From the NCBI RefSeq assembly GCF_030013595.1, contig NZ_CP122768.1: 64,000 nucleotides of DNA, one strand, 5' to 3'. Made by a program: the position numbers. This stretch comes from Escherichia coli (GTDB lineage Bacteria; Pseudomonadota; Gammaproteobacteria; Enterobacterales; Enterobacteriaceae). Shown here in pieces: positions 1-3,000 of this stretch (position 1 is the first letter of the stretch; each line of letters starts with the position of its first letter).

Positions 1-3000
1 TTTCAAGTTCATTAATTTCTTTGCTGAGAGCTTCTTCTGCAGTCGAACCAAAAACACCAAAAGAATTGTTTGAAGCTTTATAATACTTTTCTTTTAAAAA
101 CGAATTAACATTTCTGATACAGTTTTGTGGGTTGTCAGGCGCAAACTGAGGGAATTCATTGGGGTATTTGTGATTCAGATATTCGGCATAAAACCGACAT
201 TTACGGGGATCTTTGCATTTGATAAGCATCTGTTCGTTATTCATTATCTCACTCCATGGCGCCTCTCTTATAACAAAATCGTCTCAATTTTATTTTGTCA
301 CTAAGTGATTATCAAATGTTTTTGTTGTGATTTGTTTGTGTTTTTAAATGTTTATGTCATGTTATCAGTGTTTTTATATAAAGATACATTGATGTTTTTA
401 TGATGGTAAAAAATCATATTTTCTTTTATATTCATTGAGTTATGCTTGTTTGCTCTGCATTTGGGGGATGACAGAAAAGAATGGGCTGTGTTGATCACAT
501 GCGCCGTATGCGCTGTCCAGGTTACAGGGCACCTCAATATTCAGCGTTTTCCTGTTGACTGGCATTGTTAATATTATGTTTTGGTTTTGTTTTATTGTGT
601 GGTTGTGAATGTTGTGTTTAGTTTGATGGTTGAGAAAGAAAAAAGAAGACTATGATGCACTAATCAGGAAATATTTTCGACGCCGGTTGAGTTAAAAGAA
701 CAGATAGAGTGGACAGGTGTTGTGTTAATAGTTTACGGCTGACAGTATTCTTATTTTAATAACAGGTGTTATTATTTATAGATTTATACAGACGATACTC
801 CCGATAAATAGTCAGGTGATGATGGTCGTTGAGTGGTTTTATAAGCTACGTATAGCTCTGTAAGACTTATTAATTCAACGATGACTACCGTTTATTGATA
901 TACCTGTATTCGGGAAATGTCATAAAAAATGTCACGTTGTTTGCAGAATCTTTTGTTTTTTAGTTTCTGATACGCAATGACTAAGCAGGAGGACTCACTT
1001 TGTTTGTATGCTGACCGTGATCGCCAGTGGAGATGAACAATTGACTCTTACATTGAAAAATATACTCTTTTGTATTTTATCGTTTATCCGCATGAAGTAA
1101 ATAATCTTCAGCAATGTTATTTATGTAAATATTATCATCTCACCCTGAGTGTTCATTTTATCAGTGTGATATTCCATTGTTTACTGATGAAATTAACCGA
1201 TAAGTGATCTTGTTAAGATTGCCAGAACGACAGTTTTTGCTGAGTCCGTGCAATGGAAGATGTGTTATATCATCTATTTAAGCAATAAGTTTAATACAGA
1301 TTTCAGAAGATGTGTTGGTGAGTTGATGACTGATTTTCAGAGGGGTATGGGAAAGTGTATGGGATCCCATAAAGAAAAAATCATTATTGTTCAGTTGACG
1401 TATATTTCCGGGTGATGGCTCCAGTCAGCAGAACATGTGTTTTTCGATGAATGACCCAATAACTTTTTCGTGAATTTCCACGGAGCGTGAAAAGCAAATC
1501 GTTTTCCGGTTCAGCCGTTTGATGCGGGAACGGAGTGTCAGATGGAGGTGCTCAATGCACCGGGTAAATATCAATACGATTTGAGGAACCATTTGCTGGT
1601 TGATCTCTTTCCGATAGCATTGGATGCAGAAATAACCACATCCAATGTAAATAAGCATCAATTGCACAGAAGCAATATACCTGCGACCCTCTCCGGAAAT
1701 TCCAGTATCACTGGCTACGTACCGTTTTCAGCAGAACGAAATGCGGCGAGGGTCATTTGGCGGACTGCCACAGATAGCCGTCCGGTTGTGTGCAACGATG
1801 AGGAAGGAATCCCGGGAGCGTTACGTTATGAATCAACAGGCGTATAACAGATACTCGTCAATCATCAGTTCAAGCTCGCGCTTTTCTCGTTTGCGCGCCA
1901 CAGCCCAGCTTTCAAGCTCTGCGTGTGATTTATGCTTTAACTCTTCAGTCCAGGGCTGCATGGAGTGGGCACACATCAGATCATACCAGCACAGCCATAT
2001 CAGCGTGTGGTAGAGATCGCGATCTTCGAAACGCCGGAGCAGACTGTTCAGCCTGTTTGCCAGCCGGCTTTCGCCCAGACGATGTAGCTCACTGAGTAAA
2101 ACGCCGCCCAGATTAAAATGCGTAAGCAGCATGATTTCATGGGTCTGAATGCTGGTCATTAACCCTTCCTGAATGGCAGGAATGAACGGTGGCGTTCCCG
2201 GGTTGACGACCTGATAGAGTCCCTGTGGTGCCACTGAGATGATGGTGCCTTTTTCCGGTAGAAAAAAGTGGGCCAGGGTCAGGCGGTGATAACCATGAAG
2301 ATGCGGAGAGCCCATTCCATGAGCGACAATAAACCGGGTTACACTTGCCATCCATTTCTGATGCTGAATTAGCAGCAGATCACACCGGTTTTCAAGTTTT
2401 TGCATAATATTCTCTCCTTTAGCACGCAGCAGAATGCCTCCGGAGGCCGGATAGTGTATTCGCTGCGGTTGAACGGATAACGGTCAGGAATTACGGACGG
2501 GATTGTGCAATACGCGCCTGCAACCAGGCTTCCACTTCACTTTTCAGCCATCGGGAGCTGCGGCCGAGTTTGATGGGGGCCGGAAAGGCACCATCTTTGA
2601 TGAGCTTATAAAACCACTTATCGGTTAAGCCGGTCAGTTGAGTGATAAACGCCATGTCGACCATCTGGTCATCCATCAGCGAAACTGGGGTCTTCATGAA
2701 AATGTTCCTCCGGATGTTGTTAATCTCAACCGGCGTTGGTGATGAAAACGACGCACCACCTTCACCGGCATAACAACCGGGGAGAAACGTAAAAAAGTTG
2801 AGGAATATTCCTGCCAGGAGAGAAACTGTTGTGTACAGGCAATACAGGTTGTCTGTTTTGTCAGTGAAGCCGGTATAAACGGAAGATGATTTTGTGTTGC
2901 CGGAATATGGGATGGCGTTTTGCCGTGACGGAATCAGTATTTTCAGTGATGATTATTACTGCGCAGGGGAGTATCGGAGATAAACCACGCCCTGTACCTG

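What the first reader, a model, noticed from the sequence alone, without database searches (positions are those of the whole stretch)
248..1832. About 1.6 kb of AT-rich sequence with no convincing gene, including a TG-rich low-complexity tract
Between the partial 5' ORF (start at 244) and the 190-aa ORF there is no ORF with a credible start or Shine-Dalgarno. Positions ~300-640 are a TGTTT/GTTTT-rich low-complexity tract on the plus strand (tgtttttgttgtgatttgtttgtgttttt...). Such tracts can be curved or H-NS-bound DNA upstream of horizontally acquired genes, or decayed gene remnants.
Basis: seen in the sequence. Interest (0 to 1): 0.3.

Follow-up and report, generated by a model that had tools for sequence, protein, structure and literature searches.

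The report
Gene-free island spacer with IS1 scar
This is an ordinary non-coding stretch inside an E. coli genomic island, made of the promoter and a conserved palindromic control site of an island regulator gene, about a kilobase of freely drifting AT-rich DNA, and the stump of an old IS1 insertion.

Summary
Positions 284-1427 are the longest stretch of the 64-kb window without a long open frame, and the lowest in G+C. The two most T+G-skewed 100-bp windows lie at 306-405 and 533-632. The last 400 bp are not AT-rich.

The region is a composite:
- 245-330 is the promoter region of the 338-aa island regulator. It holds a palindrome (AATCACTTAGTGAC, 297-310) found 64-79 bp upstream of this gene in six lineages (E. 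coli, Edwardsiella, Yersinia, Rahnella, two metagenomic).
- 316-1410 is AT-rich DNA with no gene and no RNA-family match, and no structure signal where tested (425-640). It occurs as a unit in 245 of 5,426 E. coli genomes. It varies about as fast as synonymous sites and aligns with nothing outside E. coli.
- 1411-1572 is an IS1-family remnant, truncated by a deletion.
- 1573-1832 is the 3' flank of the 190-aa gene. The 94-aa "hypothetical protein" that RefSeq annotates there shows no coding signature.

A gene-free gap of 0.57-1.7 kb upstream of the regulator recurs in all relatives. It is most likely a silenced, H-NS-type control region, but this is inferred from composition only. The finding is ordinary and of low interest.

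The parts
1..244 (-). 5' end of the 338/339-aa island 'transcriptional regulator' gene (ATG at 244-242). It lies upstream of a GTPase gene and an Ag43 gene.
   Evidence: RefSeq annotation of 99.8%-identical loci. Codon-position variation 40/29/69. Homologues at 47-59% identity in Edwardsiella, Yersinia and Rahnella.
252..255 (-). Shine-Dalgarno sequence GGAG, 7 nt before the regulator's ATG.
   Evidence: Read from the sequence. Invariant in 12 E. coli relatives.
287..315 (-). Best sigma-70-like promoter for the regulator: -35 TTGATA (315-310), 17-nt spacer, -10 TAAAAT (292-287).
   Evidence: 10 of 12 consensus matches, the best site in 1-2500. The -10 is TAAAAT or TACAAT in all relatives. This is a prediction; the transcript start is not mapped.
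297..310 (.). Conserved palindrome AATCACTTAGTGAC (a perfect AATCACTTAGTGATT in some E. coli copies). Candidate operator inside or next to the core promoter.
   Evidence: AATCACT[T/G]A[G/A]TGA(T/C) lies 64-79 bp upstream of the regulator's ATG in six lineages. It occurs once per locus. No other close match exists in the 64 kb.
316..405 (+). TG-rich tract 1 (CA-rich on the regulator's sense strand), with T5 runs. Predicted to be intrinsically curved.
   Evidence: G+T 0.72 at 306-405. Curvature peak 53.8 degrees per 31 bp near 366. 298-363 aligns with Edwardsiella at 73% identity. The motif ATAAAAACA at about 392-400 is shared across lineages.
440..570 (.). Block of ordinary composition (G+C 0.47) between the two tracts. 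A comparable G+C-richer block lies 200-400 bp upstream of the ATG in every lineage.
   Evidence: No coding signature. No significant fold and no covariation on either strand.
533..635 (+). TG-rich tract 2. Positions 570-635 have no C. It evolves by slippage-type indels.
   Evidence: G+T 0.77 at 533-632, the most skewed 100-bp window of the 64 kb. One relative has an 11-bp insertion TTTTAGTTTTG. Predicted straight.
636..1410 (.). AT-rich sequence with no detectable gene or RNA family. It drifts at about the neutral rate and is specific to the E. coli lineage.
   Evidence: Diversity 0.03-0.16 per 50-bp window. No similarity to the gaps of other lineages. No match in plasmid or phage collections. 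Other strains carry IS3 insertions here.
1403..1410 (.). Left copy of the 8-bp IS1 target duplication (TATTTCCG). The right copy was lost with the deletion.
   Evidence: Comparison with L005, which keeps both copies (tatttccg / tgtttctg), and with the IS-free site in L013 (tattgctg).
1411..1572 (-). IS1-family remnant: terminal inverted repeat GGTGATGGCTCCAGTCAGCAG starting at 1411, and the C-terminal part of the transposase (1425-1571).
   Evidence: Pfam DDE_Tnp_IS1 E = 3.4e-19, profile positions 70-130 of 131. RefSeq pseudogene annotation. About 83% DNA identity to IS1-family elements in other strains.
1565..1572 (.). Deletion junction. About 607 bp present in strain WP2-S18-ESBL-08 are missing here: the rest of the IS1 element plus about 89 bp of native flank. 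The deletion is at a TAA(A)TATC microhomology.
   Evidence: Window 1-1572 matches L005 3254-4773, and window 1565-2450 matches L005 5380-6260. Sequences read.
1573..1832 (.). Native 3' flank of the 190-aa gene (G+C 0.45-0.52). About 100 bp (1725-1825) are deleted in 5 of 13 relatives.
   Evidence: No intrinsic terminator predicted.
1542..1847 (+). ORF annotated in RefSeq as a 94-aa hypothetical protein (101 aa here). Judged spurious.
   Evidence: Its start codon lies inside the IS1 remnant. Variable sites by codon position are 10/10/9. It is destroyed by the 100-bp deletion in 5 relatives and frameshifted here. No Pfam or NCBIfam match.
1819..1828 (.). 5-bp tandem duplication CGTTA-CGTTA, absent from the other copies compared.
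   Evidence: Alignment of the tail region. It accounts for the 5-base length difference from the closest genomes (2995 against 3000 bases).

Best explanation
The interval is a composite non-coding spacer in a CP4-type, tRNA-gene-style genomic island. The gene order read on the minus strand is 263 aa, AlpA, 190 aa, this gap, regulator, GTPase, Ag43.

**Proximal part (about 245-400).** This is the control region of the regulator-GTPase-Ag43 transcription unit. It holds a Shine-Dalgarno sequence, a sigma-70-type promoter, and a 13-15 bp palindrome within or next to that promoter. The palindrome is most likely the operator of a dimeric repressor. The best candidate is the regulator itself, through its C-terminal ribbon-helix-helix-like segment. 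Just upstream lies a curved T-tract/CA-rich segment.

**Distal part (about 400-1410).** This is 66% A+T and has no sequence-specific content. It is tolerated filler that probably works only through its composition. I infer that it acts as a platform for H-NS/Hha-type silencing. Its sense-strand RNA would be C-rich, G-poor and untranslated. Rho could therefore stop read-through from the co-directional AlpA operon there, since no intrinsic terminator is predicted downstream of that operon.

**History.** An IS1-family element inserted at 1410/1411 in an ancestor of most copies. In this lineage a microhomology deletion then removed most of the element plus about 89 bp of flank. Positions 1573-1832 are what remains of the 3' flank of the 190-aa gene.

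**Shown:** the anatomy, the absence of a gene or RNA family, the near-neutral divergence, the IS1 history, and the conservation of the palindrome and of a gene-free gap.

**Inferred:** who binds the palindrome, H-NS occupancy, and Rho action.
For: **No gene or RNA**
- Longest frame-free stretch of the window.
- No coding signature in any ORF.
- The six-frame search of 1.84e9 proteins returned only short same-locus ORF calls in all frames.
- No Rfam hit at E <= 1.
- No fold or covariation signal in the segment tested, 425-640.

**Drift**
- Diversity is 0.080 in the gap, against 0.038 in the adjacent gene and 0.065 at its third codon positions.
- Other strains carry IS3 and IS21 insertions and truncations in the gap.

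**Linkage**
- The 1163-bp block is in 245 genomes and the regulator in 244.

**Control region**
- Best promoter match at 287-315.
- The palindrome is invariant in six lineages whose regulators are only 47-59% identical to the E. coli protein.
- Cross-lineage similarity is confined to the proximal 150-300 bp and appears on both strands and in all frames, so it is non-coding.

**Gene-free gap in every relative**
- 565, 1089, 1377, 1557 and 1683 bp, all below the G+C of their locus.

**Composition and curvature**
-.

**Silencing in a related island**
- In strain 042 all tested genes of the flu-yeeR region rise more than two-fold in hns and hha mutants (PMC6480617).

**IS1 history**
-.
Against: - H-NS or Hha binding, Rho termination and the transcript start were not measured, and I found no published map for a strain carrying this block.
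- The H-NS motif count is only what A+T richness would give. There is no match with fewer than two mismatches and none in the TG tracts.
- The regulator's DNA-binding fold is weakly supported. Pfam RepB-RCR_reg gives E = 0.042, below its cut-off. The AlphaFold model is unusable, with pLDDT 59 overall and below 50 at the C-terminus.
- Strain 042's island lacks this regulator and this gap sequence, so the published H-NS data are only by analogy.
- One relative (L025) manages with a 565-bp gap, so the kilobase length is not required.
- The C>G strand bias is reversed in Edwardsiella, which weakens any general Rho-loading argument.
- Near-neutral average divergence does not exclude short functional elements. 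Diversity pockets of about 0.03 occur at 930-980 and 1280-1305.
Confidence: 0.6

Rival explanations
1. The AT-rich kilobase is the wreck of one or more protein genes, decayed beyond recognition. It has no present function at all, not even through its composition.
For: - Divergence is near neutral.
- IS elements have inserted repeatedly in different strains.
- A real pseudogene fragment (IS1) sits in the same gap.
- The block travels only by linkage with the regulator.
Against: - The six-frame search of 1.84 billion representatives found no family other than ORF calls on the same DNA.
- There is no residual codon periodicity.
- Relatives at 47-59% protein identity also keep a gene-free gap at the same place with unrelated sequence. 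Independent gene decay would not predict that.
Confidence: 0.15
2. The gap is mainly a Rho-dependent termination zone. Its sense-strand RNA is untranslated, A/C-rich and G-poor, and loads Rho. This insulates the regulator-GTPase-Ag43 unit from the AlpA-190-aa operon upstream, or attenuates a long leader.
For: - On the regulator's sense strand C is 0.208 and G is 0.132 over 248-1410. G is absent from 570-635.
- The sense strand is weakly structured (z = -1.27).
- No intrinsic terminator is predicted anywhere in 1-2500.
- The AlpA block is co-directional with the regulator in E. coli.
- The same A+C bias (0.55-0.60) is seen in Yersinia, Rahnella, two metagenomic relatives and the unrelated 042 gap.
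Against: - In the other lineages the upstream genes are divergent, so there is nothing to insulate.
- Edwardsiella has the opposite C/G bias.
- No termination data exist.
- This explanation is compatible with the best one rather than exclusive of it.
Confidence: 0.12
3. The gap hides an unannotated functional product: a small RNA, or a small hydrophobic peptide such as the 32-aa ORF at 305-403 or the 30-aa ORF at 1008-1100.
For: - ORF 305-403 is intact in 12 of 13 relatives, with variable sites 5/5/11 by codon position.
- ORF 1008-1100 follows an AGGAGG sequence and is intact in 11 of 13.
- Low-diversity pockets lie at 930-980 and 1280-1305.
Against: - The 5/5/11 pattern is not significant (chi-square about 3.4, 2 degrees of freedom). 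That ORF starts at GTG with no Shine-Dalgarno sequence, inside a low-complexity tract.
- ORF 1008-1100 has 11/7/8, with the AGGAGG 15 nt from the ATG.
- No Rfam hit, no terminator and no covariation.
- Nothing in 400-1410 is conserved outside E. coli.
Confidence: 0.06
4. The gene-free region between the Gp2/YagK-type Rep-like gene and the regulator is a cis-acting site of the island. It could be an origin nicked by the Rep-like protein, or a transfer or packaging site.
For: - In Edwardsiella, Yersinia, Rahnella and L025 the gap directly adjoins a YagK_YfjJ/REP_ORF2-G2P gene.
- The window carries such a gene at 5271-5870.
- The regulator has a weak match to a rolling-circle replication regulator family.
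- The genes downstream (DUF932, antirestriction, RadC) resemble plasmid leading-region cargo.
Against: - There are no iterons, strong hairpins or repeat families in the gap.
- The Pfam matches are below their cut-offs.
- In E. coli the Rep-like gene is separated from this gap by the inverted AlpA block.
- The sequence is not conserved beyond the promoter-proximal part.
Confidence: 0.07

Closest known systems
IS1-family insertion sequence (remnant)
   Same: Positions 1411-1572 carry the terminal inverted repeat (GGTGATG...) and the C-terminal part of a DDE_Tnp_IS1 transposase. An 8-bp target duplication is visible in a relative that keeps a nearly complete copy.
   Different: Only about 160 bp survive here. 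The interior, the other inverted repeat and about 89 bp of flank were lost by deletion. It is a divergent IS1 relative, about 83% identical in DNA to IS1-family elements in other strains. Even the longest copy seen (678 bp in L005) is frameshifted.
H-NS/Hha-silenced AT-rich regulatory regions of horizontally acquired islands (for example the flu-yeeR-irmA region of EAEC 042, PMC6480617)
   Same: Same type of island (GTPase-Ag43-DUF932-antirestriction-RadC) with its own hha paralogue. Both have a stretch of more than 1 kb at about 62-66% A+T upstream of the operon. A curved segment is predicted just upstream of the promoter here.
   Different: No binding or expression data exist for this block. 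Strain 042 has a different sequence and no regulator gene at this position. No high-affinity H-NS motif was found.
Operators of ribbon-helix-helix autorepressors (CopG, Arc, Mnt, omega type)
   Same: A short perfect or near-perfect palindrome overlaps or abuts the promoter of the gene for a protein with a C-terminal strand-helix-helix sequence pattern. It is conserved while the surrounding DNA diverges.
   Different: The regulator is 338 aa with a large N-terminal part of unknown fold. The ribbon-helix-helix assignment is weak (E = 0.042). Binding is untested, and AlpA or another island protein could be the ligand.
Cryptic prophage-like islands CP4-57, CP4-44 and CP4-6 of E. coli K-12, and the IntY/AlpA/Gp2-like/RadC islands of Pseudomonas (PMC12595487)
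   Same: Shared gene repertoire: AlpA, a YagK/YfjJ (Gp2-like) gene, a GTPase, Ag43, antirestriction, RadC and defence cargo (BREX here).
   Different: This regulator and its upstream block occur in only about 4.5% of complete E. coli genomes. They gave no DNA match outside those roughly 245 genomes in the searches of the E. coli collection.

Membership tests
IS1-family insertion sequence | Transposase homologous to IS1 InsB (DDE_Tnp_IS1) | tested here: met
   Translation of window 1428-1667 (minus strand) matches PF03400 at E = 3.4e-19, 69.9 bits against a cut-off of 24.1, profile positions 70-130 of 131.
IS1-family insertion sequence | Terminal inverted repeats beginning GGTGATG | tested here: met
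   One end is present at 1411 (GGTGATGGCTCCAGTCAGCAG). In L005 both ends can be read (ggtgatggttccagtc... and ...gactgaaggtgtcacc). The comparison with the canonical IS1 repeat is from memory.
IS1-family insertion sequence | Complete element of about 0.7-0.8 kb with target-site duplication | tested here: not met
   Only about 162 bp remain in the window. The left copy of the 8-bp duplication is at 1403-1410 and the right copy is deleted. It is a remnant, not an element.
Protein-coding gene | Open frame kept in relatives, with an excess of third-position change | tested here: not met
   Of 16 ORFs in 245-1415, none is intact in all 13 relatives. Position counts are flat, against 40/29/69 in the control gene. 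The RefSeq 94-aa ORF gives 10/10/9.
Protein-coding gene | Homology to a protein family | tested here: not met
   Six-frame concatenated query against 1.84e9 representatives: 29 hits, all 30-151 aa ORF calls on the same DNA in different frames. Pfam and NCBIfam gave nothing.
Known RNA family (Rfam 15) | Covariance-model match | tested here: not met
   No match at E <= 1 in window 1-4000. No match in the corresponding gaps of L018 and L020.
Structured non-coding RNA (novel) | Folding more stable than shuffles, with compensatory changes | tested here: not met
   z = +1.97 on the plus strand and -1.27 on the minus strand for 425-640. Compensatory pairs: 0 of 31 and 1 of 46. Only this segment was tested, and the sequences are 86-100% alike, so power is low.
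H-NS-type xenogeneic silencing region | Extended A+T content well above the genome average | tested here: met
   66% A+T over 1163 bp against 50.7% for the window. It is the lowest-G+C kilobase of the 64 kb.
H-NS-type xenogeneic silencing region | Intrinsic curvature or a high-affinity nucleation motif | tested here: inconclusive
   There is one curvature peak above the 99th percentile at about 366. The region mean is barely above the window mean (20.4 against 17.7 degrees) (parameters recalled from memory). The TCGATAAATT-like motif has 5 matches, all with 2 mismatches.
H-NS-type xenogeneic silencing region | H-NS/Hha occupancy and derepression in hns or hha mutants | not testable with these tools
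   Only analogous data exist, for a different island copy in strain 042 (PMC6480617). That copy lacks this block.
Autoregulated promoter with palindromic operator | Palindrome conserved at a fixed position relative to the gene across diverged relatives | tested here: met
   AATCACT[T/G]A[G/A]TGA(T/C) lies at -64 to -79 in six lineages. There is a single copy in the 64-kb window.
Autoregulated promoter with palindromic operator | A DNA-binding fold in the cognate protein, and binding to the site | tested here: inconclusive
   PF10723 (ribbon-helix-helix clan) gives E = 0.042 over residues 294-331, below the cut-off. No solved relative was found. The AlphaFold model has pLDDT 58.9. Binding cannot be tested here.
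Rho-dependent terminator (rut region) | Untranslated, C-rich, G-poor, weakly structured RNA | tested here: met
   On the sense (minus) strand C is 0.208 and G is 0.132, with no G in 570-635. No ORF with a coding signature. z = -1.27. This is composition only.
Rho-dependent terminator (rut region) | Rho-dependent 3' ends in vivo | not testable with these tools
   Needs Term-seq or bicyclomycin RNA-seq in a carrier strain.

The most novel reading that the evidence does not exclude
The gene-free interval between the Gp2/YagK-type Rep-like gene and the regulator may be the cis-acting core of a widespread family of enterobacterial islands that carry AlpA, a Rep-like gene, a GTPase, and antirestriction and RadC genes. 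On this reading the invariant palindrome is the switch between divergent transcription units. The adjoining AT-rich DNA would hold the site where the Rep-like protein nicks, or where the island is replicated, packaged or mobilised after excision. In E. coli this core would have been split by an inverted AlpA block and then hit by IS1.
Probability: 0.07. Interest if true: 0.6.

Novelty: new member of a known kind. Interest (0 to 1): 0.15.

Why it matters
Mostly it does not: this is the expected look of a silenced intergenic region in horizontally acquired DNA, with an insertion-sequence scar.

There are three practical gains:
- The RefSeq 'hypothetical protein' WP_000453440.1 at 1542-1826 is very likely a spurious call. 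It begins inside an IS1 fragment and shows no coding signature.
- The 13-15 bp palindrome upstream of the regulator is a concrete, testable operator. The regulator-GTPase-Ag43 unit it precedes is uncharacterised, occurs in about 4.5% of complete E. coli genomes, and has related forms in Edwardsiella, Yersinia and Rahnella.
- The recurrent gene-free gap at this position gives a defined place to look for H-NS/Hha control, or for a cis-acting site, in these defence-carrying islands.

Tried and rejected
- **Rfam E-value scans** of window 1-4000 and of the gaps in L018 and L020 found nothing in the gaps. The only hit was IS102/IsrC RNA between the GTPase and autotransporter genes of Edwardsiella, outside the region.
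- **Pfam and NCBIfam** on all larger ORFs of the gap found nothing.
- **Six-frame search against 1.84e9 proteins.** All stop-free segments were concatenated into one query. Only same-locus ORF calls came back, so a recognisable decayed gene is rejected for 248-1410.
- **Distant DNA search** of plasmid and phage collections found no match.
- **Scan of species-representative genomes** with the regulator protein returned a single locus. It is a contig binned as Collinsella that is 96% identical to E. coli, probably misbinned.
- **RNA structure** of 425-640 on both strands showed no stability signal and no covariation.
- **Repeats.** There are no iterons and no tandem arrays beyond a 16-bp, 2.8-copy low-complexity array at 314-357. 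This rejects an iteron-type origin and a repeated mobile element. The block occurs once per genome.
- **Extra ATCA/TGAT half-sites upstream of the palindrome.** They are enriched in L020 and L025, marginally in Rahnella, and TGAT is enriched in E. coli. They are not enriched in Edwardsiella or Yersinia, so I do not use this.
- **IS1-mediated inversion** as the origin of the E. coli gene order is rejected. Strain SC406 (L013) has an IS-free, continuous site, and L005 shows a simple insertion with a target duplication.
- **AlphaFold model of the regulator** was too poor (pLDDT 59) to justify a fold search. No solved relative was found by sequence.
- **Literature searches** for the palindrome sequence and for the GTPase family found nothing relevant.
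- **Fur or CRP box** for the palindrome is rejected by eye. Only the E. coli copy has a GATAATCA half, and the TCAC/GTGA halves are in the opposite order to a CRP site.
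Full report
**Setting**

Window 1-3000 is 99.8% identical to chromosomal loci of several E. coli strains. RefSeq annotation of those loci places it in a CP4-type island. In window coordinates, all on the minus strand, the order is:
- Ag43, then a GTPase, then a 338/339-aa 'transcriptional regulator' whose ATG is at 244;
- the gap under study;
- a 190-aa hypothetical gene (1833-2405), AlpA (2491-2697) and a 263-aa hypothetical gene (3080-3871).

Beyond these, on the plus strand, lie hha (4827-5039) and a Gp2/YagK-type Rep-like gene (5271-5870). The closest annotated genome (L001) then has zinc-ribbon genes and a BREX brxL gene at positions that would map near window 7350.

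**Checking the observation**

- G+C is 0.340 over 248-1410 against 0.493 for the window. The lowest-G+C kilobase of the 64 kb starts at 301.
- From about 1400 onward G+C rises to 0.45-0.52, so only the first 1.15 kb is AT-rich.
- 284-1427 is the longest stretch of the window with no stop-free frame of at least 90 codons: 1144 bp, against 472 bp for the runner-up.
- The TG-rich 'tract' is real and extreme. It is two tracts, 306-405 (G+T 0.72) and 533-632 (G+T 0.77), the two most skewed 100-bp windows of the 64 kb. Positions 570-635 contain no C.
- The tracts flank a block of ordinary composition at 440-570.

**What RefSeq annotates in the gap**

*IS1 pseudogene (1425-1571, minus strand).* It is real.
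- The translation matches Pfam DDE_Tnp_IS1 at E = 3.4e-19, and an IS1-type terminal repeat starts at 1411.
- Strain WP2-S18-ESBL-08 (L005) keeps 607 bp more of the same element.
- Strain SC406 (L013) has an IS-free, continuous site with the sequence tattgctg where L005 has the duplicated tatttccg / tgtttctg.
- So a simple IS1 insertion was followed, in the window's lineage, by a deletion between TAA(A)TATC microhomologies. The deletion removed the interior of the element, its other end and about 89 bp of native flank.

*94-aa hypothetical protein (1542-1826, plus strand).* It is not credible.
- Its start codon lies inside the IS1 fragment.
- Variable sites fall 10/10/9 on the three codon positions.
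- A 100-bp deletion destroys it in 5 of 13 relatives.
- In this window a 5-bp tandem duplication (CGTTA, 1819-1828) shifts its end.

**The AT-rich block, 248-1410**

- It occurs as a unit in 245 of 5,426 complete E. coli genomes at 86-100% identity, with nothing annotated on it.
- The regulator gene occurs in 244 genomes, so the two travel together.
- In an alignment of 13 diverse copies, nucleotide diversity is 0.080 in the block, 0.038 in the regulator gene and 0.065 at the gene's third codon positions. The block therefore changes about as fast as synonymous sites.
- None of the 16 ORFs of at least 20 aa is intact in all copies or shows a coding pattern. The control gene gives 40/29/69.
- I concatenated all stop-free segments of the six frames into one query and searched 1.84 billion protein representatives. 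The 29 hits are all 30-151 aa ORF calls from the same DNA, in different frames. No decayed gene is recognisable.
- Rfam finds nothing. Plasmid and phage collections hold no similar DNA. Folding and covariation tests of 425-640 are negative on both strands.
- Other strains carry IS3 or IS21 insertions or truncations in the gap. This fits dispensable DNA.

**The promoter-proximal part is different**

- The best sigma-70-like site of the first 2.5 kb is on the minus strand: -35 TTGATA at 315-310 and -10 TAAAAT at 292-287. It sits just upstream of a GGAG and the ATG.
- Homologues of the regulator at 47-59% identity exist in Edwardsiella tarda, Yersinia kristensenii, Rahnella and three metagenomic clusters. 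I read the upstream regions of five of these.
- In all of them, and in E. coli, the palindrome AATCACT[T/G]A[G/A]TGA(T/C) lies 64-79 bp before the ATG. It occurs once per locus and has no other close copy in the 64-kb window.
- In E. coli it occupies 297-310, between the predicted -35 and -10. In the other lineages a -10-like hexamer follows it by about 23 nt.
- Cross-lineage similarity is limited to the proximal 150-300 bp. It appears on both strands and in all frames, so it is nucleotide-level, non-coding conservation.
- This is the signature of an operator. The obvious candidate ligand is the regulator itself, whose C-terminus has a strand-helix-helix sequence pattern.
- That assignment is weak. 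Pfam RepB-RCR_reg gives E = 0.042, below its cut-off. No solved relative was found. The AlphaFold model is unusable.

**A gene-free gap recurs upstream of the regulator**

- The gap is 565 bp (L025), 1089 bp (Edwardsiella), 1377 bp (Yersinia), 1557 bp (Rahnella) and 1683 bp (L020). G+C is 0.38-0.43 in loci that average 0.49-0.50.
- Each lineage also has a G+C-richer block 200-400 bp upstream of the ATG, like 440-570 here.
- In four of those lineages (Edwardsiella, Yersinia, Rahnella, L025) the gap separates the regulator from a divergent YagK/YfjJ (Gp2-like) gene followed by AlpA. L020 instead has an unannotated 352-aa gene there.
- In E. coli the AlpA block is inverted and sits between the regulator's gap and the Gp2-like gene. 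A 33-bp piece of the second gap (4156-4188) matches the Rep-proximal part of L025's gap. The E. coli gap is therefore the regulator-proximal half of an ancestral divergent intergenic region, plus lineage-specific sequence.
- The 565-bp gap of L025 shows that the kilobase length is not essential.

**Mechanism**

What is shown is the anatomy above. What I infer is as follows.
1. The palindrome is a repressor operator controlling the regulator-GTPase-Ag43 unit.
2. The AT-rich DNA upstream acts, if at all, through composition.
   - My wedge-model calculation (parameters recalled from memory, sanity-checked on phased A-tracts) gives a curvature peak of 53.8 degrees per 31 bp near 366. That is above the window's 99th percentile. 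Tract 2 is straight and the block as a whole is barely above average.
   - 66% A+T over more than 1 kb is the usual substrate of H-NS. The island carries its own hha gene.
   - In the related island of EAEC 042 all tested genes of the flu-yeeR region rise in hns and hha mutants (PMC6480617). However, 042 lacks this regulator and this sequence. It has a different 1229-bp unannotated, equally A+C-skewed gap upstream of its GTPase gene.
3. The sense-strand RNA would be C-rich and G-poor (C 0.208, G 0.132; no G in 570-635) and untranslated. No intrinsic terminator is predicted. Rho-dependent termination of read-through from the AlpA operon is therefore plausible.
   - Against a general role, the upstream genes are divergent in other lineages, and the C/G bias is reversed in Edwardsiella.

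H-NS motif matches are only what A+T richness gives. None of these functional steps could be tested here.

**Verdict**

Its interpretation is partly right.
- The region is a non-coding island spacer with a conserved promoter and operator at one end and an IS1 scar near the other.
- It is an uncharacterised instance of well-known kinds of sequence, and of low interest.
- The most novel reading not excluded is that the gap between the Rep-like gene and the regulator is a cis-acting origin or mobilisation site of this island family. It has no positive evidence beyond gene neighbourhood, and I rate it at about 7%.

Noticed in passing
window 3872-4826: A second gene-free, AT-rich gap (G+C 0.36, 955 bp) lies between the 263-aa gene and hha. 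Positions 4156-4188 match, at 91% over 33 bp, the DNA just upstream of the Rep-like gene in metagenomic relative L025. This gap may be the other half of an ancestral divergent intergenic region.
   Followed up: partly
window 1833-3871 compared with L018, L021, L023 and L025: The AlpA block (263 aa, AlpA, 190 aa) is inverted relative to the regulator when compared with Edwardsiella, Yersinia, Rahnella and L025. There, YagK/Gp2 and AlpA are divergent from the regulator. The 190-aa protein is 33-36% identical to the 175-178-aa proteins that follow AlpA in those lineages.
   Followed up: partly
window 4827-5039 and 5271-5870: The island carries its own hha paralogue (Pfam HHA, E = 3e-26). It also carries a Gp2/YagK_YfjJ-type Rep-like gene (E = 4e-5, below the Pfam cut-off) that is 54.5% identical to the Rep-like protein of L025. 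In the closest annotated genome, zinc-ribbon genes and BREX brxL follow, so the island is a defence-cargo carrier.
   Followed up: partly
L026 (E. coli 042, NC_017626.1 2332990-2334218): The CP4-44-like island of strain 042 has no regulator gene. It has a 1229-bp unannotated gap between a YfjI-family gene and the GTPase gene. G+C is 0.38 and the A+C skew (0.588) equals that of the window's gap, yet there is no sequence similarity.
   Followed up: partly
L018 8116-8359 (Edwardsiella tarda): Rfam IS102/IsrC RNA (RF00124, 49.1 bits against a cut-off of 46) lies between the GTPase and the autotransporter gene. This is the known small-RNA position upstream of flu, conserved in a distant island.
   Followed up: no
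window about 12850-13300: This is the only other kilobase of the window with G+C below 0.36. It includes a G+T-skewed 100-bp window at 13103-13202 (G+T 0.67, A+T 0.74). It was not examined.
   Followed up: no
L001 5228-5307 (NZ_CP145700.1): In the closest genome an ISEc12 (IS21-like) element abuts the 3' end of the regulator gene. The annotated protein therefore ends in IS-derived residues. This produced spurious short hits to many unrelated proteins in the homology search.
   Followed up: yes
L017 (JAIJJM010000108.1): A 7.2-kb contig binned as a Collinsella metagenome-assembled genome encodes the regulator at 96% identity and carries the same gap. It is almost certainly a misbinned E. coli contig.
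   Followed up: no
L003 2041-2738 (NZ_CP144928.1): In one strain the regulator gene itself is split by a complete IS1 element, and several other copies are frameshifted. The regulator is therefore dispensable in at least some hosts.
   Followed up: no
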